From an uncultured Jatrophihabitans sp. (GTDB lineage: Bacteria; Actinomycetota; Actinomycetes; Mycobacteriales; Jatrophihabitantaceae), in NCBI GenBank assembly GCA_964244175.1, contig CAXTHY010000009.1:29-64028 (forward strand): a DNA stretch of 64,000 nucleotides, given 5' to 3'. The notes below the pieces were generated by a model. That model searched no databases. It had not been told where the DNA came from and saw only the letters and a program-made list of their open reading frames with translations. This document shows positions 8,885 to 22,433 of this stretch, in pieces. The translations under genes were made by a program, and so were the position numbers. How positions within the stretch are numbered: position 1 is the stretch's first letter; each line of letters starts with the position of its first letter.

Positions 8885-8953
8885 CGACACATCGGCCGAT
8901 GCCGCCGCAACCTGATGGCAACCGGGAAGATTCACCCGGCGGCGCGCGGCCCC

Positions 8954-9928
8954 TCAGCTGCGGCGTTGGCGCAGTTCGGCGTTGATCGCGGGCACGATCT
9001 CGTGCAGGTCGCCGATCACCGCGTAGTGCGCCTTGGTGACCATGGGGGCCTCGGGATCGGTGTTGATCGCGAGGATGGTCTTCGCCGACTGGCACCCGGC
9101 CCAGTGCTGGATCGCACCGCTGATGCCGCACGGGATGTAGACGTCGGGGGCGATGCGGCTGCCGGTCTGCCCGACCTGTTCGCTGTGCGGACGCCAGCCC
9201 AGGCCGGTGACGACGCGCGAGACGCCCAGGGCGCCGCCGAGCAGCTCGGTGAGTTCGAGCAGGTCGGTGAAGCCGTCGGCACTGCCGGCGCCGCGGCCGG
9301 CGCCGACGACCACGCGCGCGCTGGTCAGGGCACCGGTGTCGTCGGTCTCGGTCGCCTCCACCCGGGTCACCCGGGCGACAAGATCGCGCTCGGCGATCTT
9401 CGGGACGTACGTGACGACCTCGGTCTCGGCCGGCGCCGCCGCCGGCTGCGCGTCGCAGGCGTGCCCGGCCACCGAGACGACGGCCACGCGGTCGGGCAGC
9501 CGCAGCTCCTCCAGCACCGACCCGCCGACCACCTGGCGGGTCACCACGAACGGATCGGGCGTGTTCACCTGCACCACGTTGGCGGCCATCGCGACGTCGA
9601 GGCGGGTCGCGACGTGCGCGAGCACCTCCATGCCGCGCGGCGTGCCGGCCGCCATCAGCACATCCGCTGCGGCGGAGTCGACGACGTCCACGACGGCCGC
9701 GGCCCACGCCGCGGCGGAGTAGGCCGCCAGCCGCTCGTCGTCAGGGTGGTGGACGACGCCCACGCCCTGCTCGCCCAGCCGCGTCAGCACCTCGTCGGTG
9801 ACCTCACCCACGACGACGGCCTGCACCGCGTCGACCGAGCGCGTGCTCAGCTCGCGGGCGAAGGTCAGCACCTCTTGCGAAACGCCCATGACGCCCTTCG
9901 CGTCGGTCTCGACCAGAACGATGATCAT
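8954..9928 (-). CDS. etfA: Electron transfer flavoprotein, alpha (large) subunit
   Basis: 324 aa with the C-terminal FAD-binding signature PDVYIPCGISGAIQHWAG. ATGA overlap with etfB. Confidence 0.9.
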   Translation of the reverse strand: MIIVLVETDAKGVMGVSQEVLTFARELSTRSVDAVQAVVVGEVTDEVLTRLGEQGVGVVHHPDDERLAAYSAAAWAAAVVDVVDSAAADVLMAAGTPRGMEVLAHVATRLDVAMAANVVQVNTPDPFVVTRQVVGGSVLEELRLPDRVAVVSVAGHACDAQPAAAPAETEVVTYVPKIAERDLVARVTRVEATETDDTGALTSARVVVGAGRGAGSADGFTDLLELTELLGGALGVSRVVTGLGWRPHSEQVGQTGSRIAPDVYIPCGISGAIQHWAGCQSAKTILAINTDPEAPMVTKAHYAVIGDLHEIVPAINAELRQRRS

Positions 9929-10698
9929 GCCGACACCACCCCGAGCTCGACCAGCAGGTCGACGACGGCCGGCGCGGCCGCTGCGCCGCGACCGAGGACC
10001 TGCACGGTGCTCGGCCGGCGCGGCGGCAGCGTGAGTCGTACTCGCCGCGAGCCGCGGGGCTCGAGCGTCGGGGTCACCGTCTCGATCGGGGCGCGCTTGG
10101 CCTTCATCCGGCCGGGGATCGACGGGTAGCGCGGGCTGACGCCGCCCTCCATCACGGCCACGACGGCGGGCAGCGGCAGCTCGAAGATCTCGGTGCCCTC
10201 GGGTCCCTCGCCGCGGGCCACGGCGTGGTCGCCTGCGAGCTCGACCGTCGAGATGCCGGTGACCACCGGGCGGTCGAGTGCGTAGGCCAGCCGGATCGGC
10301 ACCTGGAAATCGCCGGTATCGGCGGCGTCGTTGCCGAGCAGGACCAGGTCGTAGGTCGTACCCGCGTCCTCATGGGCGCGCACCACGTCGGCGATCGCCG
10401 CAGCGACGTCGACCGGGCCGAAGCGCTCGGCGTCGGCCTCGATGAGCACACCGTCGGTGCAGCCGACCGCCAACGCGCTGCGCAGCTGCTCGACGGCCTC
10501 GGCCGCCCCGAGCGTCAGCACGGTCACCGTGCCACCGGACGCCTCGGCCAGCTGCGTCGCGAGCTCGACCGCGCACTCCTCGTGCGGGCTCACGGTGAAG
10601 CCGACGTGCCGGGCATCGACCGCCTGCTCGTCGGCGGTGAGCAGGACCTCCCCGGACACGTCCGGGACCCGCTTGATGCAGACCAGGATGTTGCTCAT
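9925..10698 (-). CDS. etfB: Electron transfer flavoprotein, beta (small) subunit
   Basis: 257 aa with N-terminus MSNILVCIKRVPD typical of EtfB/FixA. Starts 4 nt after the upstream dehydrogenase stop. Confidence 0.9.
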   Translation of the reverse strand: MSNILVCIKRVPDVSGEVLLTADEQAVDARHVGFTVSPHEECAVELATQLAEASGGTVTVLTLGAAEAVEQLRSALAVGCTDGVLIEADAERFGPVDVAAAIADVVRAHEDAGTTYDLVLLGNDAADTGDFQVPIRLAYALDRPVVTGISTVELAGDHAVARGEGPEGTEIFELPLPAVVAVMEGGVSPRYPSIPGRMKAKRAPIETVTPTLEPRGSRRVRLTLPPRRPSTVQVLGRGAAAAPAVVDLLVELGVVSA

Positions 10699-10702
10699 GA
10701 AC

Positions 10703-13219
10703 TCAGCTCCGGATCCGCTCGTTCTCGGGGTCGAACAGCGCGCTCGCGTCGGCCGCGGCGACCGTCACCGGGTAGCGCTCCTCGAAGTAGTCGACGGCGA
10801 GCTTGGTGCCGACGATCGCGGTCTCCGGCGGCAGGTAGGCCATCAGCACGTGCTGGCCCAGGGAGGGCGCCGAACCGGCCGTCGTGACGTAGGGGCGGTG
10901 CCCGTGGCCGTCGACCAGCGGCTCGCCGTCGGGGGTCACGATCGGCTCGCCGCCGAGCATGTAGCGCAACGTCCCGTCAGCCGACGTGTGGTCGTCGACG
11001 GTCAGCGAGCACAGCACCGCCTCGGGCGCGTTGTCACGCTGCTTGAGGTAGGCCTCGCGACCGACGAAGTCGGCGTCCTTCACCTTGGGTCGCATCATCC
11101 CGGCCTCGACGATCGTCCGCTCACTGTCGAGCTCGGCACCGTACGCGCGGTAGCCCTTCTCGATGCGGCCGGTCGTGCCGTAGACGCCGATGCCGACCGG
11201 CACCGCGCCGTGGGGCCGGCCGGCCGCCCGGACGAGGTCCCACAGGCGGGCGCCCTCTTCCATCGGGACGTACAGCTCCCAGCCGAGCTCGCCGACGTAG
11301 GAGATGCGCGAGGCCAGCACCGCCAGCGACTCGATCTCGAGATCGCGGCACGTCCCGAACTTGAACGCGTCGCCGCTGACGTCATCGGCGGTGAGCGCGC
11401 CGAGGATGTCGCGGGCCCGCGGGCCCCACAGCCCGATCGTGGTGAACGACGACGTGAGGTCGACGATCTGGGCCGAGCCGTCGGCCGGCAGGTGGTCGCG
11501 GAACCATTTGCGGTCGAGGTTGCCGTGCGCGCCGCCGGTGACCACGCGGAACCGGTCCTCGGCCAACCGCATGATCGTCAGGTCGGCGCGGAACCCGCCG
11601 CGCTCGTCGATGATCGGCGTGTAGACGACCTTGCCGGGCGCGACGTTCAGCTGACCGACGGCGATGCGTTGCACTGCGTCGAATGCGCCCGGCCCGACGA
11701 CGTCGAAGATCACGAAGGCCGAGAGGTCGACGTAGCCGGCCCGCTCGCGCATCGCGAGGTGTTCGGCGTTGATGATCGGCGACCACCAGCGCGCGTCCCA
11801 CTCGGCCGCGCGCGGCATGACGGCCGCGCCGTACTCGCCCAGCAAGGCTTCGTTCGAGGCGTACCAGTGGGGGCGCTCCCAGCCGGCCGTCTCGTAGAAG
11901 AAGGCGCCGAGCTCGCGCTGGCCGGCGTGCATCGGCGCCAGACGCACATCGCGATTGCTGCCCCACTGCTCGGCCGGGTGGATGATCCCGTAGGTCTTGT
12001 TGAAGCCCTCGCCGGTGCGGGCCCAGATGTGGTGCTTGGTGCGCTGGTGTGGGTAGAAGCGGGCGATGTCGGCGCCGTGCACGTCGATCTCGGGATTGCC
12101 GTCGGTCATCCACTCGGCGACGGTGCGTCCGACGCCCGGGCCTTCCTTGATCCAGACGGCCGCGGCCGACCAGACGCCCTTGACCTCGGGGCTCTCGCCC
12201 AGCACCGGCGCGCCGTCGGGGGTGAGCGACAGCAGGCCGTTGATGGCGTAGCGGATCTCGGCCGCCTCGTTGCCCAGCAGCTGCGGCATCAGCTCGAGGG
12301 CCTGCTCGAGCTGGGGGTCGAAGTCGTCTTCGGTGAAGGGCATCTCGGTCGGACTGAGCTTGGCCTGGTCGATGGACGGGATGTCCTCGGCGTCCATCAG
12401 GATCGCGCGGTGGGCGTAGGAGCCGACCTCCATATCGCTGCCGTGCTGGCGCTCGTAGCAGAACGTGTCCATGTCGCGCACGATCGGGTACGAGATCTCA
12501 CCGGGCTTGTCGGCCAGCTCGGGCACCGGGCCGACGCTGATCATCTGGTGCACCGCGGGCGTCAGCGGGATGTGCACGCCGGCCATCTTGGCCAGCTTCG
12601 GGCTCCAGACCCCGCACGCGATGACGACGGTGTCGGTGTTGATGTCACCGCCGCTGGTGCGCACGGCCCTGATCTGGCCGCCCTCGACCGTCATGGCCGT
12701 GACCTCGACGTTGGGGACGACGGTGAGGGCGTCGAGTGCCTGCGCCTTCTCGCGCATGATCGTCCCGGCCCGCAGCGAGTCGACGACGCCCACGCTCGGT
12801 GTGTAGAAACCGCCGATGATCACCGAGGGGTCGAGGAAGGGCACCTTCGCGGCGATCTGCTCAGGCGTCAGCAGCTCGGAGGCAATCCCCCAGGCCTTGG
12901 CGCTGGACATGCGCCGGCGCAGTTCCTGCATGCGCTCCTCGGTGCGGGCGACCTCGATGCCGCCGCATTCGGTGAAGACGTCCATTTCCTTGTACTGCCG
13001 CATGCTGTCGAGCGTCAGATCGGTGATCTCGCGCGAGTGGTCGACCGGGAAGATGAAGTTCGACGCGTGCCCGGTGGAGCCGCCCGGGTTCGGCAGCGGC
13101 CCTTTGTCGAGCTGCACGATGTCGCGCCAGCCGAGGCGGGCCAGGTGGTACACGAGGCTGTTGCCGACGATGCCGGCCCCGATCACCACGACCCGGGCGC
13201 TGCTCGGAACCGTTGCCAT
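10703..13219 (-). CDS. Dimethylglycine/sarcosine dehydrogenase-type flavoprotein (DAO FAD domain plus GcvT-like folate-binding aminomethyltransferase domain)
   Basis: 838 aa. VVVIGAGIVGNSLVYHLARLG (GxGxxG). STGHASNF resembles the covalent-FAD histidine region of this family. Long C-terminal GcvT-like region. First gene of an operon with etfBA. Confidence 0.85.
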   Translation of the reverse strand: MATVPSSARVVVIGAGIVGNSLVYHLARLGWRDIVQLDKGPLPNPGGSTGHASNFIFPVDHSREITDLTLDSMRQYKEMDVFTECGGIEVARTEERMQELRRRMSSAKAWGIASELLTPEQIAAKVPFLDPSVIIGGFYTPSVGVVDSLRAGTIMREKAQALDALTVVPNVEVTAMTVEGGQIRAVRTSGGDINTDTVVIACGVWSPKLAKMAGVHIPLTPAVHQMISVGPVPELADKPGEISYPIVRDMDTFCYERQHGSDMEVGSYAHRAILMDAEDIPSIDQAKLSPTEMPFTEDDFDPQLEQALELMPQLLGNEAAEIRYAINGLLSLTPDGAPVLGESPEVKGVWSAAAVWIKEGPGVGRTVAEWMTDGNPEIDVHGADIARFYPHQRTKHHIWARTGEGFNKTYGIIHPAEQWGSNRDVRLAPMHAGQRELGAFFYETAGWERPHWYASNEALLGEYGAAVMPRAAEWDARWWSPIINAEHLAMRERAGYVDLSAFVIFDVVGPGAFDAVQRIAVGQLNVAPGKVVYTPIIDERGGFRADLTIMRLAEDRFRVVTGGAHGNLDRKWFRDHLPADGSAQIVDLTSSFTTIGLWGPRARDILGALTADDVSGDAFKFGTCRDLEIESLAVLASRISYVGELGWELYVPMEEGARLWDLVRAAGRPHGAVPVGIGVYGTTGRIEKGYRAYGAELDSERTIVEAGMMRPKVKDADFVGREAYLKQRDNAPEAVLCSLTVDDHTSADGTLRYMLGGEPIVTPDGEPLVDGHGHRPYVTTAGSAPSLGQHVLMAYLPPETAIVGTKLAVDYFEERYPVTVAAADASALFDPENERIRS

Positions 13220-13249
13220 CCGTCCACCCCTTTACTGCCGTCCAGCCAG

Positions 13250-13265
13250 TGTTGCGTATCGTACA
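13250..13265. promoter_or_regulatory. Candidate IclR operator box A (TGTTGCGTATCGTACA), upstream of the dehydrogenase-etfBA operon
   Basis: 16-mer located 31 nt upstream of ATG 13219. It matches 15 of 16 positions of a box at 14191-14206. It is followed by CATCATGC, which also occurs next to box B. Confidence 0.45.
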
Positions 13266-13308
13266 ACATCATGCACCATAAGCAACGCCCCCGCCAACCC
13301 CTCGTTCT

Positions 13309-13371
13309 CTTCTCGGGTGCTGAGCTGACCACTTTTCGCCGTCGAAAGTGGTCAGCTCAGCACCCGAGAAG
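13309..13371. repeat. Long perfect palindromic element (27-bp arms, 9-nt loop); also a likely terminator of the IclR gene
   Basis: CTTCTCGGGTGCTGAGCTGACCACTTT-tcgccgtcg-AAAGTGGTCAGCTCAGCACCCGAGAAG. A degenerate copy lies at 53176-53238 and arm-terminus motifs lie at 32526-32556. Confidence 0.85.
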
Positions 13372-13395
13372 GGGCGGACAGTGGGGGGACGCGGG

Positions 13396-14169
13396 TCAGG
13401 TGGGCTGCCAGCCGAGGCGGTGCGAGACCTCGCCGGCGGCCGTGACCAGGTCCGGCAGCACCTCGGCCACCCGCTCCTTGTCGAGGCGCAACGTCGGTCC
13501 GGACAGGCTGAGCGAGGCGACGATGTCGCCGTGCGCATTGCGGATCGGCGCGGCCACCGCGGTCAGCCCGACCTCCAGCTCGTCAATCGCCACCGCGTAA
13601 CCGGCGCCCCGCACCTCGTCGATCTCGCGCCGCAGCTGCTTCTTCGTCGTGATCGTCGCGTCGGTGTACGCAGCCAGGGTGCCGAGCGTCTCGTTGAGCT
13701 CGCCCGGGCTCAATTCGCTGAGCAGCACCTTGCCGTTGGACGTGGCGTGCAGCGGGATGTGCTGGCCGACCCAGTTGTGCGCCTGCAGCGACGACGCGCC
13801 GGCGACCTGATCGACATAGAGCGCCGAGTTGCCCGACAGCACGGCGATGTTCACCGTCTCGCCGGTGGTGGTCGCGAGCCGACGGCAGACGGGCCGAGCT
13901 TCCTGGACGACGTCGAGACGGGCCGTGGTCGCACCGGCGAGGCGCAGGATGCCCATGCCGAGGCGGTACTTGCCGCGATCACCGGCCTGCTCGACCAGCC
14001 CGGCGTTCTCCAACGCCGACACGAGCCGGAACGCGGTGCTCTTGTGCACGCCGATCTCGGCCGCGATCGCGGTGACGCCCTCTTCGCCGGCGCGGGCCAG
14101 GATATCGAGGATCGTCAGCGCCCGTTCCACGGACTGCACCCCGGACGGCGCGGCGTCGCTGTTGCTCAT
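13396..14169 (-). CDS. IclR family transcriptional regulator
   Basis: 257 aa. N-terminal wHTH (VQSVERALTILDILARAGEEGVTAIAAEIGVHKSTAFRLVSAL) plus an IclR-type effector domain. Confidence 0.9.
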   Translation of the reverse strand: MSNSDAAPSGVQSVERALTILDILARAGEEGVTAIAAEIGVHKSTAFRLVSALENAGLVEQAGDRGKYRLGMGILRLAGATTARLDVVQEARPVCRRLATTTGETVNIAVLSGNSALYVDQVAGASSLQAHNWVGQHIPLHATSNGKVLLSELSPGELNETLGTLAAYTDATITTKKQLRREIDEVRGAGYAVAIDELEVGLTAVAAPIRNAHGDIVASLSLSGPTLRLDKERVAEVLPDLVTAAGEVSHRLGWQPT

Positions 14170-14190
14170 TATGCGACACTAGCGCAGGCA

Positions 14191-14206
14191 TGTTGCGTAT
14201 CGCACA
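14191..14206. promoter_or_regulatory. Candidate IclR operator box B (TGTTGCGTATCGCACA) in the iclR/purU divergent region
   Basis: Near-identical to box A. It is flanked by two copies of ATGCGACA (14171-14178 and 14221-14228) and by TGCATCATGC. Confidence 0.45.
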
Positions 14207-14243
14207 CTCGGTTGTGCATCATGCGACAGACGAGAGGCCTGAG

Positions 14244-15110
14244 ATGACAGCCGCGCGGCACCCCGAGTACGTCCTGACCATCGTCTGCCCGGACCGCCCT
14301 GGCATCGTCTACGCCGTCGCGTCGTTCCTCGTGCACAGTGCGGGCAACATCCTCGAGAGCCAGCAGTACGACGACCGGATCGAGGAGCGCTTCTTCATGC
14401 GCGTCCACTTCGAGGTCTACGACGAGGCGATGACCCTCGACCGGCTGCGCCACGGCTTCCAGGCGGTGGCCGACGCGTCGCAGATGACGTGGCAGATGTG
14501 GGCGGCCGACGCGAAGTACCGCACGCTGGTGCTGGTCTCGAAGGAAGGCCATTGCCTCAACGACCTGCTCTACCGGCAGAGCATCGGCGCGCTGCCGATC
14601 GAGATCCCGGCCGTGATCTCGAACCACACGAGCCTCGAGCGGCTCGTCACCTCCTACGGGATCGACTTCCACCACGTCCCGGTGACGGCGGAGAGCAAGG
14701 CAGCGGCCGAGGCCGAGCTGATGGCGCTGGTCGACTCGCTCGGCATCCACCTGGTGGTGCTGGCCCGCTACATGCAGATCCTGACCGACGAGACCTGCGC
14801 CGCTCTACAGGGCCGAGCCATCAACATCCATCACTCGTTCCTGCCCTCGTTCAAGGGTGCGCGGCCCTACCAGCAGGCTTACGACCGCGGCGTGAAGCTG
14901 GTCGGGGCGACTGCGCACTATGTCAGCCCGGACCTTGACGAAGGGCCGATCATCGAGCAGGACGTGATGCGCGTCGACCACGCGCTCAGCGGCCCGCAGC
15001 TGGTAGCGGCCGGACGCGATGTCGAGAGCCAGGTGCTCTCCCGAGCGGTGCGCTGGCACGCCGAGACCCGCGTGCTGCTCAACGGCCACCGCACGGTTGT
15101 GTTCCGCTGA
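14244..15110 (+). CDS. purU: Formyltetrahydrofolate deformylase
   Basis: N-terminal ACT domain (LTIVCPDRPGIVYAVASFL) plus a formyltransferase core (INIHHSFLPSFKGARPYQQA, GATAHYVSPDLDEGPIIEQD). ATG 14244 is preceded by GAGAGG. Confidence 0.9.
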   Translation: MTAARHPEYVLTIVCPDRPGIVYAVASFLVHSAGNILESQQYDDRIEERFFMRVHFEVYDEAMTLDRLRHGFQAVADASQMTWQMWAADAKYRTLVLVSKEGHCLNDLLYRQSIGALPIEIPAVISNHTSLERLVTSYGIDFHHVPVTAESKAAAEAELMALVDSLGIHLVVLARYMQILTDETCAALQGRAINIHHSFLPSFKGARPYQQAYDRGVKLVGATAHYVSPDLDEGPIIEQDVMRVDHALSGPQLVAAGRDVESQVLSRAVRWHAETRVLLNGHRTVVFR

Positions 15111-15128: not shown

Positions 15129-16568
15129 TCAGTCGCCGAGTTCGGCCCGGCGGCGCACGACGTACTCCTCGAGCTCGGCCCGGATCGCGTCGTTGAGCGG
15201 CGGGGCCTCGTACTCCTCGAGCTTCTTCTGGTAGATCTTCGTTGCGCGCCCGGCCGCGTCGACCCCCCCGTTGCGCATCCAGCGCTCGTAGTTCTCCGAG
15301 GACGAGAGCAGCGGCCGGTAGAAGCAGGTACGGAAACGCTCCATGGTGTGCATCGCGCCCAGGAAATGGCCGCCGTGCCCGACCTCGACATGCGCACCGA
15401 AGGCCAGCGAGTCGTCGTCGATCTCGAGCGGGGTGAACTGCTCGCGCATCATCTGCAGCAGTTCGATGTCGACGATGAACTTCTCGTAGCCGGCGACCAG
15501 GCCACCCTCGAGCCAGCCGGCTGAGTGCATCACCCAGTTCGCCCCGGCGAGGAACGTCGGCATCAGCGTCATCAGCGCCTCGTAGCCGGCCTGCGCGTCG
15601 GGCACCTGCGACGACGTCATCGCGCCGCCGGAGCGAAACGGCAGCCCGAAGTGCCGGGCGATCTGCCCGGTGCACAGCAGGCCCATCGCCGACTCGGGCG
15701 TCCCGAACGTGGGCGACCCCGACTGCATGTCGATGTTGGACAGGAACGACCCGAAGACCACCGGGCAACCGGGACGGATCAGCTGCGAGAGCGCGATACC
15801 GGTCAGCGCCTCGGCGATCTGCTGCACCAGCGCCGCCGGGATCGTCACCGGCGACATCGCGCCCATCAGGATGAACGGGGTCAGCACGACGGCCTGGTTC
15901 GCGGCGCTGTACTCCATCTGCGCGTCGAGCATCCGGTCGTCCCAGCGCAGCGGCGAGTTGCAGTTGATCAGCGAGATCGTCGTCGGCGTCTGCTCGATGG
16001 CCGCGCGACCGCCGAACAGGATCGAGCTCATCTCGATGGTGTCGCGGGCGTTGACCCCGGACACGACGTTGCCCATGTAGATCTTGTCGGTCAGTGTCTG
16101 CAGCGCCAGCGTCATGTCGAGGTGGCGCGAGTCGAGCGGCGTGTCGTTGGGCTCGCAGATGACGCCGCCGGCCGAGTCGAGCACCCCGAAGGTCTGCGAG
16201 AGCTTGGTGAAGTTGCGGAAGTCCTCCATCGTCGCGTCGCGGCGCACCTCGCCCGCGCGGACGAACGGCGGCCCGTAGACCGCGCCGAAGGCCATCGAGT
16301 CGCCCCCGATGTGGATCGAGTTGGCCGGGTTGCGGGCGGCGACATCGAACTCGCGCGGGGCCTTGGCCACCTGTTCGAGGACGAACTCGGGGTCGAAGAA
16401 GACGGTGTTCTCCTCGACGCGCTGGCCGGCCTGGCGGAACAGTTCGAGCGCCGGCTCGGCCATGAACTCGACACCCACCTCGCTCACGAGCCGACGCCAG
16501 CCCGCGTCCAGCTTCGCCATCGCGTCCTGCGACAGGACCTCGTAGCGCGGCATGACGTTTCGGAACAT
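15129..16568 (-). CDS. MttB-superfamily (trimethylamine methyltransferase family) substrate:corrinoid methyltransferase, non-pyrrolysine type
   Basis: 479 aa from ATG 16568, with AGGAGG 6 nt upstream. Full-length similarity by eye to MttB/MtgB-type proteins (MFRNVMPRYEVLSQDAMAKLD...). The frame is uninterrupted, so there is no amber codon. Confidence 0.85.
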   Translation of the reverse strand: MFRNVMPRYEVLSQDAMAKLDAGWRRLVSEVGVEFMAEPALELFRQAGQRVEENTVFFDPEFVLEQVAKAPREFDVAARNPANSIHIGGDSMAFGAVYGPPFVRAGEVRRDATMEDFRNFTKLSQTFGVLDSAGGVICEPNDTPLDSRHLDMTLALQTLTDKIYMGNVVSGVNARDTIEMSSILFGGRAAIEQTPTTISLINCNSPLRWDDRMLDAQMEYSAANQAVVLTPFILMGAMSPVTIPAALVQQIAEALTGIALSQLIRPGCPVVFGSFLSNIDMQSGSPTFGTPESAMGLLCTGQIARHFGLPFRSGGAMTSSQVPDAQAGYEALMTLMPTFLAGANWVMHSAGWLEGGLVAGYEKFIVDIELLQMMREQFTPLEIDDDSLAFGAHVEVGHGGHFLGAMHTMERFRTCFYRPLLSSSENYERWMRNGGVDAAGRATKIYQKKLEEYEAPPLNDAIRAELEEYVVRRRAELGD

Positions 16569-16618
16569 CGGGTGCCTCCTTGACCTGGCTGGGTACGTCG
16601 CGCATCCTAACCCCGTAT

Positions 16619-16651
16619 TATGGAAGTGCAGTTCCATATTGTGAAACTGCA
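16619..16651. promoter_or_regulatory. Two interlocked inverted repeats in the mttB-like/iclR divergent promoter region
   Basis: TATGGAA-gtgcag-TTCCATA (16619-16638) and TGCAGTT-n11-AACTGCA (16627-16651), inside an unusually AT-rich stretch. Confidence 0.4.
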
Positions 16652-16677
16652 TCCTCGACGGTGGGACTCCGGAGACC

Positions 16678-17439
16678 ATGACCAACACGGGCGCACAAGC
16701 CGTCGACCGCGCGGCTCAGTTGCTGACGCTCGTCGTCCAGGCCGACGGGCCCATCACCTACACCGAGCTGGTCGAGGACGCCGGCCTGGCCCGCTCGACG
16801 ACCTCGCGCCTGCTCGCTGCCCTCGAGGCCAATCACCTCCTCGAGCGCGACGCCCACGGCGCCTACCGCTCGGGCGCACTGTTCGCGCTGTACGCGGCGC
16901 GCCACGATCCGTGGTCGCAGGTGGCCCGGCTGGCCGATCCGATCATGCGCACGGTCGGCGCGCTGACCGGCGAGACGGTGAACCTGGCCATCGCGCGTGG
17001 TGACGCCGTCGTGCAGATCGCGCAGGTCGACTCGACCTTCATGCTCAGCGCGCGCGACTGGATGCAGGTCGACGTCCCGCCGCACTGCTCGGCGCTGGGC
17101 AAGGTGCTCTACGCCTTCGGCGCGCTCGATTTGCCGATCGGCCGCCTCGAGCAACTCACGCCGCACTCGCTGCCGACGCCACAGGTGCTGGCGCGCGAGA
17201 TCGCGATCATCCGCCGGCGCGGCTACGCCGTCGCCCGCGAGGAACTGGAAATCGGCCTGGACGCCGTAGCCGCTCCCGTGCGCGGCACCGAGGGTGACGT
17301 CGTCGTCGCGCTCGGCGTGTCTGGCCCGAGCGCGCGCCTCGGTAAGAAAACCGACGAGATTGGACAGCTGCTGGTCGAGCATGCGAGCTCGCTGTCGCAG
17401 TTGCTCCGTCCCCGCATGCGAAAGAAAGGCGTGGCCTGA
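16678..17439 (+). CDS. IclR family transcriptional regulator (second copy)
   Basis: 253 aa. wHTH (AVDRAAQLLTLVVQADGPITYTELVEDAGLARSTTSRLLAALE) plus an IclR effector domain. Confidence 0.9.
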   Translation: MTNTGAQAVDRAAQLLTLVVQADGPITYTELVEDAGLARSTTSRLLAALEANHLLERDAHGAYRSGALFALYAARHDPWSQVARLADPIMRTVGALTGETVNLAIARGDAVVQIAQVDSTFMLSARDWMQVDVPPHCSALGKVLYAFGALDLPIGRLEQLTPHSLPTPQVLAREIAIIRRRGYAVAREELEIGLDAVAAPVRGTEGDVVVALGVSGPSARLGKKTDEIGQLLVEHASSLSQLLRPRMRKKGVA

Positions 17440-17440
17440 C

Positions 17441-18102
<662 letters not shown>

Positions 18103-18106
<4 letters not shown>

Positions 18107-18978
18107 CCACAACGCGTGAGACAAGGCTGCGCTCAGCCACCAAAGAGGTCGTCATCGGCCACGACCGGCCGTTCTGCCTGATCGGTGAGCGGATCAACCC
18201 GACCGGCCGCAAGATCTTCCAAGAGCAGCTGCGCGCCGGCGATCTGTCGGCCATCGAGCGGGACGTCGCGATGCAGGTGGCCGGCGGCGCCGACGTGCTC
18301 GACGTCAACATGGGCGTGCCACTGACCGACGAGGCCGAACTGCTGGCCAAGGCCGTCACGTTGATCCAGCAGCTCACCGACCTGCCGATCTGCATCGACT
18401 CGTCCGTCGTCGAGGCGCTCGAAGCCGGGCTCGCCGCCTACCACGGCCGGGCCCTCGTCAACTCGATCACGGCCGAGGACGACCGGATGGCCGCGATCCT
18501 GCCGCTGGTGAAGAAGTACGACGCGGCGATCATCGCGTTGCCGAACGACGCCGACGAGATCCCGATGGAGTCGGACAAGCGGCTCGACCTCGTGGGCAAG
18601 ATCGTCGAGGTCGCGACGACGGAGTACGGCATCGCGATCGAGGACATCGTCATCGATCCGCTGGCCATGCCGATCGGCGCCGACACCTCGCACGTGCAGA
18701 CGACGCTGACGACGATCCGCCGCATCCGCGACGAGTTCGGGTTGAACATGACCTGCGGCGCCTCCAACGTCTCGTTCGGCATGCCGGGCCGGCACCAGCT
18801 CGGCGCCGCCTTCCTGCCGATTGCGATGTCGGCCGGCCTGACCAGCGCGATCATGGATGCCCGGACGCCGCAGATCGTCGAGGCGGTCAAGGCCGCCGAC
18901 CTGCTGCTCGGTCACGACGAGTGGGGCATGGCCTGGATCGCGGCGCATCGGGCCCGGCAGGCTGCGGCCGCCACGTGA
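18103..18978 (+). CDS. Pterin-binding methyltetrahydrofolate:corrinoid methyltransferase (MtgA/MtrH/AcsE-like)
   Basis: 291 aa. Motifs: LIGERINPTGRK, DVLDVNMG, VNSI, CGASNVSFG. ATGA overlap with the corrinoid protein gene. Confidence 0.85.
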
Positions 18979-18988
18979 GTCACCCCAC

Positions 18989-20929
18989 GTGACCGAGCGG
19001 CCACCGGCCCTCGACGCCGACCTCGACAGCTACCGGCGCGAGGGCTTGATCGAACCTCCGGCGAACGCCGCCGAAAGCCGAGCCGCCGAGCACGACGGCA
19101 GCGGGCGCGTCGACCTGACGCTGCTGCCGGCGGGACGGACGGTGCGGGTCCCCCCGGGCGTGACGGTGTTCGACGGCGCGAGCTGGAACGGCATCGCCAT
19201 CGACTCGACCTGTGGCGGCCACGGCACGTGCAAGAAGTGCAAGGTGCAGATCGTCTCGGGGTCGGTGCCGGTATCGCGGCTGGACACCCGCGCGTTCACC
19301 GCCGACCAGCTGCGCGCCGGCTGGCGGTTGGCCTGCCTGGCCCAGGCGACGCAGCACCTCACCGTCGAGGTGCCGCCGCTGCTGACCCGGCCGAAGGCGG
19401 CCACCGTCGGCGTCGGCCGGCAGGTCATCCTGCGCCCGGCCGTGCAGAAGCGCTACGTCGAGCTCGGCGAACCGACGCTGACCGACCAGCGGCCCGACCT
19501 CACCCGGCTGCTGGCGGCCATCGACGACCTCGCACCGCAGCCCGACCTGCATCTGCTGCGGCGGCTGCCCACGGTGCTGCGGGCGGCCGACTACAAGATC
19601 ACCGCCGTCATCGTGGACGAGGCGCTGATCGACGTCGAAGCCGGCGACACGACGGCCCGGCAGTTCGGCATCGCCTTCGACCTCGGCACCACCACCGTCG
19701 TCGCCACGCTCGTCGACCTGACCACTGGCACGCCGGTCGCGGTGCGCTCGATGCTCAATCGCCAACAGCCCTTCGGCGGCGATGTGATCACCCGCATCAG
19801 CGCGACGATGATGGATCCCGAGGCGCTGGGCCGGCTGACGAGGGCGGCGCACGACACGCTGGCCGAGCTGGCGGCCGAGGTGTGCACCGAGGGCGAAGTG
19901 GCCCTGGCCGAGGTGTACGAGATCGCGGTCGCGGGCAACGCGACGATGACCGCGCTGGCGTTGGGCATCGACCCCGAGCCGCTCGGCGTCGCGCCGTTCG
20001 TCATGTCGTGCTCGACCCCGCCGGTGGTGCTGGCCAGCGACCTGGGCGTGCCGGTCCACCCGGGCGCGCGGGCGGTGACGTTCCCGGCCCTGGGCGCATA
20101 CGTCGGCGGTGACATCGTGGCCGGCATCCTGGCCACCGGCATGGACCGCGACAAGCGGCTGCGGCTGTTCATCGACGTCGGGACGAACTGCGAGATCGTG
20201 CTCGGCGACGGCGAACGCATCCTGGCCACGGCGGCGCCGGCCGGGCCGGCGTTCGAAGGCGGCGCGATCCGCTGCGGCATGCGCGCGGCCGACGGCGCGA
20301 TCGAGGTCGTGAAGCTCGGTGACGACGTCACCCTGGGCGTGATCGGCGACGTCACGCCGGTCGGGCTCTGCGGTTCGGGCCTCGTCGACGTCGTGGCCGA
20401 ACTGGTGAAGGTCGGCCTGGTCGACGCGTCCGGCCGGTTCGTCCCCGAAGACGCTGCCGCCACCATCGCGCCGGCGTTGGCCGATCGGCTGACCAAGGTG
20501 GGCGAGGAACGCGTCTTCATCCTGTACCGCCCGTCGCCGACGTCCGAGCCGCAGGACACCGTGTACCTCTCGCAGCGTGACATCCGCGAGTTGCAGTTCG
20601 CCAAGGCCGCCATCGCCACCGGCTGGGCGCTACTGGTCGAGGAGTTCGGGGTCGAGCCGCGTGAGGTGCAGCAGGTGCTGTTGGCCGGGTCGTTCGGCAG
20701 TTACCTGTCACCCTCGTCCGCGATCCGCATCGGTTTGGTGCCCAAGCTGCCCGTGCTGCGCATCGTCTCGGCCGGCAACGTCGCCGGCGAAGGGGCGAAG
20801 ATGGCCTTGCTGAGCCGCCGCGAACGCGAGGGCGCAGCCGCGCTGCTTGAGGAGGTGCGCTATGTCGAACTCTCCGACCGGACCGACTTCAACGACAAGT
20901 TCGTCGACCAGCTCGCCTTCCCGGGCTGA
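18989..20929 (+). CDS. RACo-type reductive activase of corrinoid proteins (2Fe-2S ferredoxin domain plus ASKHA ATPase-like domain)
   Basis: N-terminal CGGHGTCKKCKV...LACL cysteine pattern. C-terminal ASKHA-like motifs FDLGTTTVV and IDVGTNCEIVLG. GTG 18989 lies 10 nt after the previous stop. Confidence 0.8.
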   Translation: MTERPPALDADLDSYRREGLIEPPANAAESRAAEHDGSGRVDLTLLPAGRTVRVPPGVTVFDGASWNGIAIDSTCGGHGTCKKCKVQIVSGSVPVSRLDTRAFTADQLRAGWRLACLAQATQHLTVEVPPLLTRPKAATVGVGRQVILRPAVQKRYVELGEPTLTDQRPDLTRLLAAIDDLAPQPDLHLLRRLPTVLRAADYKITAVIVDEALIDVEAGDTTARQFGIAFDLGTTTVVATLVDLTTGTPVAVRSMLNRQQPFGGDVITRISATMMDPEALGRLTRAAHDTLAELAAEVCTEGEVALAEVYEIAVAGNATMTALALGIDPEPLGVAPFVMSCSTPPVVLASDLGVPVHPGARAVTFPALGAYVGGDIVAGILATGMDRDKRLRLFIDVGTNCEIVLGDGERILATAAPAGPAFEGGAIRCGMRAADGAIEVVKLGDDVTLGVIGDVTPVGLCGSGLVDVVAELVKVGLVDASGRFVPEDAAATIAPALADRLTKVGEERVFILYRPSPTSEPQDTVYLSQRDIRELQFAKAAIATGWALLVEEFGVEPREVQQVLLAGSFGSYLSPSSAIRIGLVPKLPVLRIVSAGNVAGEGAKMALLSRREREGAAALLEEVRYVELSDRTDFNDKFVDQLAFPG

Positions 20930-21521
20930 GGCCGCGGGGCGACGGGTCGCGTTGATCGCCTGCGGTGCGCTGGCCCAGCCGGCCGAGCAGATCGCGGCGC
21001 GGCGCGGGTGGCCGGTCGACGTCCACCCGCTGCCCCCGTTGCTGCACAACCAACCGCAGTTGATCGCCGGGCAGGTGGAAGCGTTGGCGGCGCAGTTGCA
21101 ACCGCGCTACCGCTCGGTGGTGGTCGGTTATGCCGACTGCGGGACGTACGGCGCGTTGGACGACGTGTGCGCGCGGCTCGGTCTGCAGCGCCTCGGCGGC
21201 CTGCACTGCTACGACGTGTTCGCCGGCGCTGATCGGCTGCGCGCGTTCTTCGCTGCGCAGCCGGGGACGTACGTGCTGACCGACTTCCTGGTGCGGTCCT
21301 TCGCCCGGACGGTCGAGCGCGAACTCGGCCTCGACCGCTATCCCGAGCTGCGCGACACCTACTTCGGTAACTACACCCGCGTGGTATGGCTGGCGCAGGA
21401 GCCCGACGACGAGTTGCGCGCACTGGCCGCCGCGGCCGCCGCCCGGATCGACCTGCCGCTGACCGTCGTCGACACCGGCACGGACGGGCTGGAACGCGAG
21501 CTGGCCGCGCTGCTGCGCTGA
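20862..21521 (+). CDS. DUF1638 domain protein (function unknown)
   Basis: Motifs: RRVALIACGAL, VVGYADCGTYGALD. ATG 20862 has AGGAGG 6 nt upstream and overlaps the activase 3' end by 68 nt in another frame. Confidence 0.7.
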   Translation: MSNSPTGPTSTTSSSTSSPSRAEAAGRRVALIACGALAQPAEQIAARRGWPVDVHPLPPLLHNQPQLIAGQVEALAAQLQPRYRSVVVGYADCGTYGALDDVCARLGLQRLGGLHCYDVFAGADRLRAFFAAQPGTYVLTDFLVRSFARTVERELGLDRYPELRDTYFGNYTRVVWLAQEPDDELRALAAAAAARIDLPLTVVDTGTDGLERELAALLR

Positions 21522-21528
21522 GCCCGGC

Positions 21529-22386
21529 TCAGGCGTCGACCGACGCGCCGAGTCGGTGCAGCAGGCCGCGGCGCCACTGCTCGGTCTCGGCCACCTGATT
21601 GAACGTGAACACGTGCAGGCCCTCGACCCGCGCGTCCGGGGCGGCCAGCGCCGGGGCCAGCTTCTCGAGGAAGCGCTCGCCGGTGAATCCGCCGGGCGCG
21701 GCCAGCCGGGTGAGCGTGCGCCGGTGCTTGGCCAGGAACTTCGTCGACTCGCCCACACCGATCTTCGTCGCCATCAGCACCAGCTTCGTGCGATCCACCG
21801 GCCCCGGCACACCGACCAGCAGCGGGATGGTGATCCCGCGCCCACGCATCCGGCGCAACCACGTCTGCACCAGGGCCGGGTCGAAGGTCAGGTTGCTGAC
21901 CACCTGGGTGGCGTGCCGGCGCTTGTCCCACATGGCCTGCACGGTCAGGTCGTCGTGGATCGACGGGTGCGACTCGGGATAACCGGTGACGCCGACGTTC
22001 GGGAACGGCCGGCCGAGGGCCTCGAGATCCTCGAGCAGGTCGAGGGCGGCGTGGTAGTCACCGGCTGGCGGATCGGCGTCGCCGGCCGGCACGAAGATCG
22101 TCCGCACGCCGGCGGCCCCGAGCCGGTCGCTGATCTCGGCCAACTCGCTTCGCCCGGACACCATCCGGGCGGCCAGGTGGGGCACGACCTGGTACCCGTG
22201 GCCGGCGAGCCGCTCGGCCAGGTCGAGCGTGGCCGCGATTCCCTTCGACGGCGAGGCCGTGATCGTGACGGTGAATCCGGCCGGCAGGTGCTCCAGCACC
22301 GCCGCCTCGGCCGCAGCAGTGGGCAGCACCTCGTAGCGGACGTGGGTCAGCAGCCGGCGCAGCGTCTCAGTAGTCTTGTTGCGCAT
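21529..22386 (-). CDS. metF: Methylenetetrahydrofolate reductase
   Basis: 285 aa from ATG 22386. MetF-like TIM-barrel sequence (SPSKGIAATLDLAERL..., GVTGYPESHP, LTFDPALVQTWLRRMRGRGITIPLLVGVPGP). Confidence 0.8.
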   Translation of the reverse strand: MRNKTTETLRRLLTHVRYEVLPTAAAEAAVLEHLPAGFTVTITASPSKGIAATLDLAERLAGHGYQVVPHLAARMVSGRSELAEISDRLGAAGVRTIFVPAGDADPPAGDYHAALDLLEDLEALGRPFPNVGVTGYPESHPSIHDDLTVQAMWDKRRHATQVVSNLTFDPALVQTWLRRMRGRGITIPLLVGVPGPVDRTKLVLMATKIGVGESTKFLAKHRRTLTRLAAPGGFTGERFLEKLAPALAAPDARVEGLHVFTFNQVAETEQWRRGLLHRLGASVDA

Positions 22387-22433
22387 AATGCAACTCAATT
22401 CAAATGATGCTACTAATCTTGGCCAGCATACCG

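What the first reader, a model, noticed from the sequence alone, without database searches (positions are those of the whole stretch)
8954..15110. ETF-coupled dimethylglycine/sarcosine-dehydrogenase-type operon and PurU flank the corrinoid module, suggesting a hybrid stepwise N-demethylation island
Seen: an 838-aa DAO plus GcvT-like flavoprotein (10703-13219) is followed 4 nt later by etfB, which overlaps etfA. Upstream are an IclR gene and a divergent purU (14244-15110). purU ends 18 nt before the MttB-family gene.

Established: dimethylglycine and sarcosine dehydrogenases pass electrons to ETF and transfer the C1 unit to THF. PurU recycles 10-formyl-THF to THF plus formate. MTHFR interconverts methyl- and methylene-THF.

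Inference: together with 15129-22386, this encodes a plausible route from betaine-type substrate to dimethylglycine, then sarcosine or glycine. The first methyl would leave via B12 as methyl-THF, and later methyls would leave oxidatively via ETF as methylene-THF. Combining an anaerobe-type first step with aerobe-type later steps is unusual. No FolD-type enzyme is present in the window to link methylene-THF to formyl-THF.
Basis: partly seen in the sequence, partly recalled or inferred. Interest (0 to 1): 0.6.

Follow-up and report, generated by a model that had tools for sequence, protein, structure and literature searches.

The report
Actinobacterial betaine demethylation island with private ETF
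A soil-type actinobacterium keeps a flavoprotein that most likely demethylates dimethylglycine, its own electron-transfer flavoprotein and a folate-recycling enzyme beside a vitamin-B12 methyltransferase system, forming a glycine betaine breakdown island of a kind described in marine proteobacteria in 2025, so it is a new lineage and not a new mechanism.

Summary
An 838-aa DAO/FAO_M/GCV_T/GCV_T_C flavoprotein (10703-13219, -) is followed after 4 nt by etfB, which overlaps etfA by ATGA. IclR and a divergent purU (ATG 14244) lie upstream, and purU ends 18 nt from the stop of a non-pyrrolysine MttB gene.

- The dehydrogenase-etfB-etfA operon is conserved in at least seven families of Actinomycetia.
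- Of 34 sampled genomes with an MttB orthologue, 27 also carry this enzyme clade, and in 15 the two genes lie 4-22 kb apart.
- In Nocardioides, betB, betA and an OpuA-type betaine ABC transporter sit between the two modules.

The enzyme is not an orthologue of mitochondrial DMGDH. It belongs to an ETF-linked sister clade of Arthrobacter dimethylglycine oxidase, which falls in a clade without ETF.

Two different IclR operators suggest separate regulation of the two modules. FolD, canonical MTHFR, MetH and betAB lie elsewhere in the genome. So does a sub-threshold GbcA-like Rieske oxygenase.

The "unusual hybrid" is already published for Ruegeria and Phaeobacter (2025), including GB-induced ETF. 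This scan had already followed up the adjacent corrinoid module of this window (e1-4247134). Verdict: a real, coherent system and a new actinobacterial member of a known kind. The sarcosine step and the substrates remain untested.

The parts
8954..9928 (-). etfA, the alpha subunit of a second, locus-specific electron transfer flavoprotein
   Evidence: PF00766 and PF01012. Only 34% identical to the housekeeping EtfA on contig C33. Follows etfB in every relative of this clade examined.
9925..10698 (-). etfB, the beta subunit; starts 4 nt after the dehydrogenase stop and overlaps etfA by ATGA
   Evidence: PF01012. Junctions read. Conserved directly downstream of the dehydrogenase in families f10, f14, f27, f42, f53 and f60 and in Nocardioidaceae.
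10703..13219 (-). 838-aa FAD- and THF-dependent N-methyl amine dehydrogenase of the dimethylglycine oxidase/dehydrogenase family (ETF-linked clade); likely dimethylglycine dehydrogenase
   Evidence: DAO + FAO_M + GCV_T + GCV_T_C. Best solved relative is DMGO 1pj5, E 9e-161; mammalian DMGDH scores E 1e-84. Equivalents of His48 (covalent FAD), His225, Tyr259 and Asp552 are conserved. It is the only DAO-GcvT fusion in the genome.
13250..13265 (+). 16-nt operator-like box TGTTGCGTATCGTACA upstream of the dehydrogenase operon
   Evidence: One of only two copies in the 4.0-Mb genome. The same box sits before dmgdh or betB in relatives.
13309..13371 (.). Long perfect palindrome between the iclR1 stop and the dehydrogenase promoter; separates the two transcription units
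   Evidence: Seen. Already noted by the scan (e1-4247145).
13396..14169 (-). IclR-family regulator 1, the likely regulator of the dehydrogenase-etfBA and purU promoters
   Evidence: HTH_IclR + IclR_C. An orthologue of at least 60% identity sits next to purU in about 70 of 80 related loci.
14191..14206 (+). Second copy of the box (TGTTGCGTATCGCACA), in the iclR1/purU divergent intergenic region
   Evidence: Present at the same place, with up to 2 mismatches, in most of the 37 (of 80) related loci that carry a copy of the box.
14244..15110 (+). purU, formyltetrahydrofolate deformylase
   Evidence: NF004684 411 bits and TIGR00655 334 bits, both above their cut-offs. Next to mttB in 64 of 80 loci.
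15129..16568 (-). Non-pyrrolysine MttB-superfamily methyltransferase (MtgB-like), 479 aa
   Evidence: PF06253 622 bits. PDB 4yyc E 9e-127; D. hafniense MtgB 2qne E 2e-116; GB methyltransferase 9yce E 3e-115. Three of the four GB-contact residues are conserved (with PMC13080624). The only MttB in the genome.
16569..16677 (.). Divergent mttB/iclR2 promoter region with conserved TTCCA...TGGAA-type inverted repeats; a different operator from the IclR1 box
   Evidence: alignment A1 of 12 loci.
16678..17439 (+). IclR-family regulator 2, the first gene of the corrinoid operon
   Evidence: conserved in 79 of 80 loci.
17441..18106 (+). Corrinoid (B12-binding) protein, MtgC-like
   Evidence: B12-binding + B12-binding_2. 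Best NCBIfam match is MtgC, 206 bits, below its cut-off. Start read.
18103..18978 (+). Methyl-corrinoid:tetrahydrofolate methyltransferase (Pterin_bind)
   Evidence: PF00809; NF005719 314 bits, above its cut-off.
18857..20929 (+). RACo-type reductive activator of corrinoid enzymes with an N-terminal 2Fe-2S domain (start uncertain)
   Evidence: Fer2 + RACo_linker + Raco_middle + RACo_C_ter.
20847..21521 (+). DUF1638 protein, the usual companion of corrinoid methyltransferase operons
   Evidence: PF07796; conserved in 68 of 80 loci.
21529..22398 (-). Divergent MTHFR-family protein; likely oxidises methyl-THF to methylene-THF
   Evidence: PF02219 only 33 bits. Best solved relative is S6MTHFR 7xg9, E 1e-31, against 4e-07 for canonical MTHFR. 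Conserved in 64 of 80 loci. A canonical MTHFR lies elsewhere, on C8.

Best explanation
The window carries a glycine betaine (GB) catabolic island of an aerobic actinobacterium. The genome is MAG-like, its nearest relatives are Jatrophihabitans and Nocardioidaceae, and it is built from two regulatory modules.

Module 1 runs from mttB to the MTHFR-like gene (15129-22398).
- The non-Pyl MttB enzyme moves one methyl from GB to a Co(I) corrinoid protein.
- A Pterin_bind methyltransferase passes that methyl to THF.
- RACo re-reduces the corrinoid when it becomes oxidised.
- A divergent MTHFR-family enzyme oxidises methyl-THF to methylene-THF.

Module 2 is the finding itself (8954-15110).
- The 838-aa covalent flavoprotein oxidises dimethylglycine, and perhaps sarcosine as well.
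- It hands the C1 unit to THF as 5,10-methylene-THF in its GcvT domain.
- It passes the two electrons to its own translationally coupled EtfBA, and from there to the respiratory chain.
- FolD, encoded on another contig, and PurU convert surplus methylene-THF through formyl-THF to formate and regenerate THF.
- IclR1 controls the dehydrogenase and purU promoters through a shared 16-nt box. IclR2 controls mttB and the corrinoid operon through a different operator.

Shown here: gene identities, junctions, catalytic residues, conserved linkage and co-occurrence. Inferred: the substrates (GB, dimethylglycine), ETF as electron acceptor, the direction of the MTHFR-like enzyme, and the regulator assignments.
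For: 1. Domain and family matches for every gene.
2. The equivalents of the covalent-FAD His, His225, Tyr259 and THF-site Asp552 of DMGO are conserved.
3. The dehydrogenase-etfB-etfA order is conserved in 5 of 5 Nocardioidaceae genomes and in families f10, f14, f27, f42, f53 and f60.
4. In a quick ML tree the 16 ETF-linked enzymes form one clade (SH-aLRT 100), separate from 5 enzymes without ETF.
5. In an even sample of 401 Actinomycetia genomes, 34 besides this one carry an MttB orthologue. Of these, 27 also carry this enzyme clade, and in 15 both genes lie on one contig 3.9-21.5 kb apart.
6. In Nocardioides locus L056 the gene order is IclR1 - aldehyde DH (betB) - GMC oxidoreductase (betA) - ABC ATPase/permease - OpuAC - dehydrogenase. 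In family f42 the OpuA genes flank mttB.
7. This genome has betA (TIGR01810, 807 bits, above its cut-off) and betB on contig C28, and one OpuAC on C4.
8. purU is next to mttB in 64 of 80 loci. FolD is present on C2.
9. The MTHFR-like protein is nearest to the methyl-THF-oxidising S6MTHFR (PMC11868366).
10. The IclR1 box occurs only twice in the genome, both times here. In relatives it recurs before the betB or dehydrogenase genes.
11. The same pathway logic was shown experimentally in Ruegeria, and GB-induced fixAB ETF genes were shown in Phaeobacter (PMC12478193; 10.64898/2025.12.19.695462).
Against:
- The nearest characterised enzyme is an oxidase (DMGO), so ETF dependence rests on gene order alone.
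- One of the four GB-contact residues of D. hafniense MtgB is not conserved: F356 aligns with Gly, and a Trp lies four residues earlier, as in 4yyc (PMC13080624). MttB specificity is therefore open.
- This genome has no betaine transporter or bet genes inside the island.
- No second DAO-GcvT enzyme and no SoxA was found. The genome is 91% complete, so the sarcosine step is unassigned.
- A GbcA-like Rieske oxygenase (385 bits against a cut-off of 670) lies beside an MSOX-like oxidase on C55 and could be an alternative betaine-type demethylase.
- The two modules have different operators, and in three well-assembled genomes of one genus they lie on different contigs.
Confidence: 0.72

Rival explanations
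1. The 838-aa enzyme is an oxidase like Arthrobacter DMGO. It reduces O2 to H2O2, and the adjacent EtfBA serves another dehydrogenase or is only loosely related.
For: The best solved match is dimethylglycine oxidase (E 9e-161), and all DMGO active-site residues checked are conserved. No ETF-oxidising partner gene is conserved downstream of etfA.
Against: etfB starts 4 nt after the stop codon, and the order dehydrogenase-etfB-etfA is invariant in 16 of 16 members of this clade from at least seven families. Characterised DMGO falls in the sister clade: L114 scores 1050 bits to 1pj5 against 540 bits for this enzyme. That sister clade never has ETF and is followed by soxB or soxBDAG instead.
Confidence: 0.1
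2. The island degrades another N-methylated compound, such as proline betaine, carnitine, gamma-butyrobetaine or a methylated amino acid. The flavoprotein would then act on the corresponding N-methyl amine, as gamma-N-methylaminobutyrate oxidase does in nicotine catabolism (that example is from my own knowledge).
For: The aromatic pair that binds the GB trimethylammonium group is only half conserved in MttB (PMC13080624). In this genome no bet or opu genes lie in the island. MttB-superfamily members are known for several quaternary amines (PMC12478193 discussion; PMC8604678).
Against: Orthologous islands in Nocardioidaceae and in families f42 and f61 embed betA, betB and OpuAC-type transporter genes. 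R312 and H348, the carboxylate contacts, are conserved. The flavoprotein keeps the DMGO substrate-site residues. Sister islands pair the same MttB module with DMGO-like plus sarcosine oxidase genes.
Confidence: 0.1
3. The two modules are functionally independent neighbours. The first betaine demethylation would be carried by the GbcA-like Rieske oxygenase on contig C55 or by the stand-alone homocysteine S-methyltransferase on C20, and the MttB system would serve another purpose.
For: A GbcA-family protein aligns over its full length at 385 bits, next to an MSOX-like oxidase. The modules have different IclR operators. They are unlinked in three well-assembled genomes.
Against: The GbcA match is far below the equivalog cut-off of 670, and no GbcB-type reductase is adjacent. 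The co-occurrence of 27 of 34 genomes and the tight linkage across families are hard to explain without a shared pathway. Phaeobacter carries both routes, and they are used under different cobalamin supply (10.64898/2025.12.19.695462), so the two routes need not exclude each other.
Confidence: 0.06

Closest known systems
Aerobic MtgBCD glycine betaine pathway of Ruegeria pomeroyi and Phaeobacter inhibens (Mausz et al. 2025, PMC12478193; bioRxiv 10.64898/2025.12.19.695462)
   Same: A non-Pyl MttB-type methyltransferase, a corrinoid protein, a methyl-THF-forming methyltransferase, a reductive activase and a second MetF-type enzyme proposed to oxidise methyl-THF. Genes for the later demethylation steps are often co-located. 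ETF genes (fixAB) are induced on GB. A Rieske GbcAB route can coexist in the same organism.
   Different: A different phylum (Actinomycetia). MetH is present here (fragment on C121; full length in three of the four relatives searched), so no dual role in methionine synthesis is implied. The dimethylglycine enzyme is of the DMGO lineage and has a private etfBA in one operon. The regulators are of the IclR type. The activase is of the RACo type and carries a 2Fe-2S domain.
Arthrobacter globiformis dimethylglycine oxidase (PDB 1pj5, 3gsi)
   Same: The same four-domain architecture and a full-length alignment (E 9e-161). The covalent-FAD His, the active-site His and Tyr, and the THF-site Asp are conserved.
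   Different: DMGO belongs to the sister clade, which lacks ETF and is followed by sarcosine oxidase genes. This clade is always followed by etfB-etfA.
Mitochondrial dimethylglycine dehydrogenase with ETF (PDB 4pab, 5l46)
   Same: The proposed mechanism: FAD-dependent oxidation of dimethylglycine, C1 transfer to THF, electrons passed to ETF.
   Different: Only a distant relative (E 1e-84). It uses the general ETF, whereas this enzyme has a dedicated paralogous ETF only 34% identical to the housekeeping one. A third actinobacterial clade is the one nearer to the mammalian enzyme.
Desulfitobacterium hafniense MtgB/MtgC/MtgA (PDB 2qne, 9yce; PMC13080624)
   Same: An MttB-fold GB:corrinoid methyltransferase aligned at E 2e-116. 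Y97, R312 and H348 are conserved.
   Different: F356 is replaced by Gly. The host is aerobic. The THF methyltransferase is of the Pterin_bind/MetH type, not the MtgA type (NF047990 scores only 19 bits).
S6MTHFR (type 4 MTHFR) of Sphingobium lignivorans, with the ligM-metF-ligH logic (PMC11868366)
   Same: The nearest solved relative of the MTHFR-like gene (E 1e-31). It is likewise placed next to a THF-dependent demethylation system that produces methyl-THF.
   Different: Only two of the seven signature residues checked are kept: P49 and F269. The others differ: L48 to S, R78 to M, F215 to M, C219 to I, P268 to T (one search read against the paper).
Pseudomonas GbcAB-DgcAB-SoxBDAG betaine pathway (from my own knowledge, not tested here)
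   Same: Stepwise removal of three methyl groups, with etf-like genes beside the dimethylglycine step.
   Different: The first step there is a Rieske monooxygenase that releases formaldehyde, and the dimethylglycine enzyme is DgcAB, which is unrelated to the DAO-GcvT fusion.

Membership tests
Dimethylglycine oxidase/dehydrogenase family (DAO-FAO_M-GCV_T-GCV_T_C) | Four-domain architecture with an N-terminal FAD domain and a C-terminal folate-binding aminomethyltransferase domain | tested here: met
   Pfam: DAO 9-370, FAO_M 373-426, GCV_T 431-709, GCV_T_C 758-821.
Dimethylglycine oxidase/dehydrogenase family (DAO-FAO_M-GCV_T-GCV_T_C) | Histidine for covalent 8-alpha-FAD attachment, plus the active-site His and Tyr and the folate-site Asp of DMGO | tested here: met
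   His51 aligns with DMGO His48. The equivalents of His225, Tyr259 and Asp552 are conserved.
Dimethylglycine oxidase/dehydrogenase family (DAO-FAO_M-GCV_T-GCV_T_C) | Dimethylglycine (or sarcosine) as substrate | not testable with these tools
   Context only: bet and opu genes in orthologous islands.
Arthrobacter-type dimethylglycine oxidase (orthologous clade) | Falls in the same clade as 1pj5, with O2 as acceptor | tested here: not met
   540 bits to 1pj5, against 1050 bits for the enzyme of L114, which has no ETF. The ETF-linked clade is separated with SH-aLRT 100 on a branch of 0.94 (a quick tree).
ETF-dependent dehydrogenase | Electron transfer to an ETF heterodimer | not testable with these tools
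   Inferred from the 4-nt junction and the invariant dehydrogenase-etfB-etfA order.
Electron transfer flavoprotein heterodimer | An alpha subunit with ETF and ETF_alpha FAD domains and a beta subunit with an ETF domain | tested here: met
   The subgroup (housekeeping or bifurcating-like) is inconclusive: solved matches of both kinds score alike and all NCBIfam equivalogs fall below their cut-offs.
PurU formyltetrahydrofolate deformylase | ACT domain plus formyltransferase domain, scoring above the equivalog cut-off | tested here: met
   TIGR00655 334.5 bits against 285.95; NF004684 411 bits against 223.
Aerobic MtgBCD-type betaine demethylation system | Non-Pyl MttB, a corrinoid protein, a methyl-THF methyltransferase and a reductive activase in one locus | tested here: met
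   Conserved in 68-80 of the 80 loci, depending on the component.
Aerobic MtgBCD-type betaine demethylation system | The corrinoid and THF modules double as a split methionine synthase in genomes that lack MetH | tested here: not met
   A MetH C-terminal fragment lies at a contig end, C121 (458 bits). Full-length MetH is present in three of the four relatives searched.
MtgB (glycine betaine:corrinoid methyltransferase) | The four GB-contact residues Y97, R312, H348 and F356 (PMC13080624) | tested here: inconclusive
   Y, R and H are conserved. F356 aligns with Gly, and a Trp lies four residues upstream; the same holds in 4yyc.
Type 4 (methyl-THF-oxidising) MTHFR | Signature residues L48, P49, R78, F215, C219, P268 and F269 of S6MTHFR | tested here: not met
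   Only P49 and F269 are kept (alignment read against PMC11868366). It is still the nearest solved relative.

The most novel reading that the evidence does not exclude
The private EtfBA could be the common electron sink of the whole island. It would accept electrons from the DMGO-lineage dehydrogenase acting on both dimethylglycine and sarcosine. It would also accept them from the methyl-THF-oxidising MTHFR-like enzyme, whose physiological acceptor is unknown for the S6MTHFR type. All three methyl groups of betaine would then feed respiration through one dedicated ETF. The hint is family f14, where a GcvT-like demethylase, the MTHFR-like gene, FTHFS, the dehydrogenase and etfBA form one gene string.
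Probability: 0.12. Interest if true: 0.6.

Novelty: new member of a known kind. Interest (0 to 1): 0.33.

Why it matters
The result extends B12-dependent aerobic betaine catabolism from marine Proteobacteria to common soil Actinomycetia. About one in ten sampled genomes of the class carries it, and it is abundant in Nocardioidaceae. This bears on soil osmolyte turnover, cobalamin demand and C1 flux.

It also defines an uncharacterised ETF-linked sister clade of dimethylglycine oxidase. Together with that oxidase it forms a natural pair for studying what makes a flavoprotein an oxidase or an ETF-dependent dehydrogenase.

It does not reveal a new mechanism.

Tried and rejected
- **Complex prediction.** EtfA and EtfB with the MTHFR-like protein, using alignments A2-A4: no verdict. 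This is not evidence either way.
- **Riboswitches.** An Rfam scan of the window and of the C55, C28 and C20 regions found no RNA family, in particular no cobalamin riboswitch before the GbcA-like gene as reported in Phaeobacter.
- **ETF-oxidising partner.** I searched for a conserved gene downstream of etfA. None is shared across families. The ORF at 8054-8935 has no family and no counterpart in relatives.
- **Split methionine synthase.** tblastn with window proteins first suggested that MetH was missing. The family search then found a MetH fragment at a contig end, so I rejected this idea.
- **ETF subgroup.** Assignment is ambiguous.
- **Type 4 MTHFR membership.** Not met, judged on signature residues.
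- **Literature on the Arthrobacter dmg/purU/folD cluster.** The search returned nothing decisive in the held library.


Full report
**Observation.** The window is 71% G+C and lies on contig C9 of a 4.0-Mb, 200-contig genome that is 91% complete.

- etfA 8954-9928(-) and etfB 9925-10698(-)
- an 838-aa DAO/FAO_M/GCV_T/GCV_T_C flavoprotein at 10703-13219(-)
- IclR at 13396-14169(-)
- purU on the + strand
- a non-pyrrolysine MttB, with a corrinoid protein, a Pterin_bind methyltransferase, RACo, DUF1638 and a weak MTHFR-family gene beyond it

Reading the junctions confirms the 4-nt gap before etfB, the ATGA overlap of etfB and etfA, the purU ATG at 14244, and the 18 nt between the convergent purU and mttB stops.

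Two gene starts need correction. mttB starts at ATG 16568 behind AAGGAGG, giving 479 aa. The corrinoid gene starts at ATG 17441.

**What the flavoprotein is.**
- Its best solved relative is Arthrobacter dimethylglycine oxidase (E 9e-161). Mammalian DMGDH is much further away (E 1e-84).
- The covalent-FAD histidine, the active-site His and Tyr, and the folate-site Asp are all conserved.
- It is the only DAO-GcvT fusion in the genome. The only other GCV_T hits are gcvT and a YgfZ-like gene, so no SoxA was found.
- The genome has a second ETF pair on C33, only about 34% identical, so the pair in this locus is a dedicated paralogue.

**Conservation.** A scan of species-representative genomes with MttB returned at least 576 related loci. 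The best 80 are all Actinomycetota, mostly Nocardioidaceae, with Jatrophihabitans among the two closest.
- In those 80 loci, the corrinoid module, purU and IclR1 accompany mttB in 64-79 cases.
- The dehydrogenase-etfBA operon is directly adjacent only in the two closest loci. In 15 further loci an orthologous N-terminus appears at the edge of the 10-kb flank.
- In 5 of 5 Nocardioidaceae genomes the orthologue (72-78% identity) lies 9-15 kb from mttB and is followed by etfB and etfA.
- In locus L056 the intervening genes are betB, betA and an OpuA-type ABC transporter with an OpuAC binding protein. This places choline-to-betaine conversion and betaine uptake between the two modules.

**Neutral sample.** I searched 401 Actinomycetia genomes drawn evenly.
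- Besides this genome, 34 have an MttB orthologue of at least 66% identity.
- Of those, 27 also carry an orthologue (at least 61% identity) of the 838-aa enzyme.
- In 15 of them both genes lie on one contig, 3.9-21.5 kb apart.
- In three well-assembled genomes of one genus they lie on different contigs.
- Four further genomes have a DMGO-like homologue (35-42% identity) near mttB instead.
- The tallies include one unpublished genome (G040). No specific claim here rests on it.

Fetched loci show the dehydrogenase-etfB-etfA order in families f10, f14, f27, f42, f53 and f60. They also show OpuA genes beside mttB in f42.

**Two alternative modules for the dimethylglycine step.**
- A quick maximum-likelihood tree puts all 16 ETF-linked enzymes in one clade (SH-aLRT 100, branch 0.94). 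This clade is sister to 5 enzymes without ETF. I chose the rows, and the careful search did not finish.
- An enzyme of the clade without ETF scores 1050 bits to DMGO 1pj5, against 540 bits for the window enzyme. The characterised oxidase therefore belongs to the clade without ETF.
- In that clade the next genes are soxB or soxBDAG.
- A third clade, the Nocardioides paralogues at 33% identity, is nearer to mammalian DMGDH.
- The window enzyme is best described as an uncharacterised, ETF-linked sister of dimethylglycine oxidase.

**C1 handling.**
- purU scores above its equivalog cut-offs.
- FolD is on C2 and a canonical MTHFR on C8.
- The island's MTHFR-like protein is nearest to S6MTHFR (E 1e-31), an enzyme shown to oxidise methyl-THF beside THF-dependent demethylases (PMC11868366).
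- It keeps only two of the seven signature residues I checked. I infer its direction from context and do not file it as type 4.

**MttB specificity.** Three of the four GB-contact residues of D. hafniense MtgB are conserved. F356 is Gly here, as in 4yyc (PMC13080624). Betaine is therefore supported by context, not by residues.

**Regulation.**
- The box TGTTGCGTATCG(T/C)ACA occurs only twice in the whole genome: before the dehydrogenase operon and in the iclR1/purU intergenic region.
- In relatives it recurs at the purU/iclR1 position and before betB or the dehydrogenase.
- The mttB/iclR2 intergenic region carries different, conserved TTCCA...TGGAA-type repeats.
- This suggests two IclR regulons, perhaps sensing betaine and a downstream product. 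It is an inference.

**Caveats from the rest of the genome.**
- betA and betB lie on C28 and one OpuAC on C4. No BCCT transporter was found.
- There are three MSOX/MTOX-like oxidases on C18, C20 and C55. They are candidates for the sarcosine step.
- On C55 one of them is followed by a GbcA-family Rieske oxygenase (385 bits against a cut-off of 670), with a divergent LysR gene.
- On C20 another is followed by a stand-alone homocysteine S-methyltransferase.
- MetH is present as a fragment at a contig end.

**Comparison with the literature.**
- Mausz et al. 2025 (PMC12478193) showed that aerobic Ruegeria uses MtgBCD for the first betaine demethylation. A MetF paralogue was strongly induced there, and the later demethylation genes are often co-located in marine Proteobacteria. 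Actinomycetota appear in that paper only as 5% of mtgC reads.
- A December 2025 preprint on Phaeobacter reports GB-induced fixAB ETF genes and the coexistence of MtgBCD with GbcAB.
- An earlier follow-up of this scan on 15129-22386 reached the same reading for the corrinoid module.
- I found no paper describing the actinobacterial island or its ETF-linked enzyme clade in the held library.

**Verdict.** The system is real and widespread, but its kind is already known. What is new is the actinobacterial lineage and the ETF-linked sister clade of dimethylglycine oxidase. I score interest as moderate to low.

Noticed in passing
own genome contig C55, locus L100:3933-7354: A LysR regulator lies divergent from an MSOX/N-methyltryptophan-oxidase-like gene (413 aa). 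A GbcA-family Rieske oxygenase (412 aa; NF058607 385 bits, cut-off 670) follows immediately, and no GbcB-like reductase is adjacent. This may be a second, oxygen-dependent demethylation route for a betaine-type compound.
   Followed up: partly
own genome contig C20, locus L094:3686-5943: An MSOX-like oxidase (404 aa) is directly followed by a stand-alone homocysteine S-methyltransferase (about 348 aa). It is the only full S-methyl_trans hit in the assembly, because MetH is cut at a contig end.
   Followed up: partly
L107:3181-12638 and L108:3198-12638 (family f14, no MttB orthologue): One gene string reads: stand-alone GcvT-family protein (412 aa) - MTHFR-like - formate-THF ligase - ETF-linked dehydrogenase - etfB - etfA - IclR. 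It resembles the ligM-metF-ligH logic fused to the dimethylglycine module, and suggests a THF-dependent first demethylase that needs no B12.
   Followed up: partly
L109:10634-14351, L110:15903-19529, L114:7288-15127: An alternative island design pairs the same MttB module or bet/opu genes with a DMGO-type enzyme (36-40% identity) followed by soxB or soxBDAG, without ETF.
   Followed up: partly
window 15129-16688: The longest ORF of mttB (519 aa, GTG 16688) overshoots. Homology starts at residue 41, where ATG 16568 has an AAGGAGG ribosome-binding site.
   Followed up: yes
window 13309-13371: A long perfect palindrome lies between the iclR1 stop and the dehydrogenase promoter. The scan has already noted it as part of a dispersed repeat family.
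   Followed up: no
window 8054-8935: The ORF just downstream of etfA has no Pfam or NCBIfam match and no counterpart downstream of etfA in any relative examined. It is unlikely to belong to the island.
   Followed up: partly
G003 (Nocardioides sp. B-3 chromosome), about 1192550-1195072 and 3963241-3966806: Both the dehydrogenase orthologue and metH read as several consecutive frames. This looks more like frameshift-rich assembly than gene loss.
   Followed up: no
window 22434-24137: The MFS gene next to the MTHFR-like gene matches the DHA2/EmrB efflux type (TIGR00711, above its cut-off), not a betaine importer. It is present near the island in only 9 of 80 relatives.
   Followed up: partly
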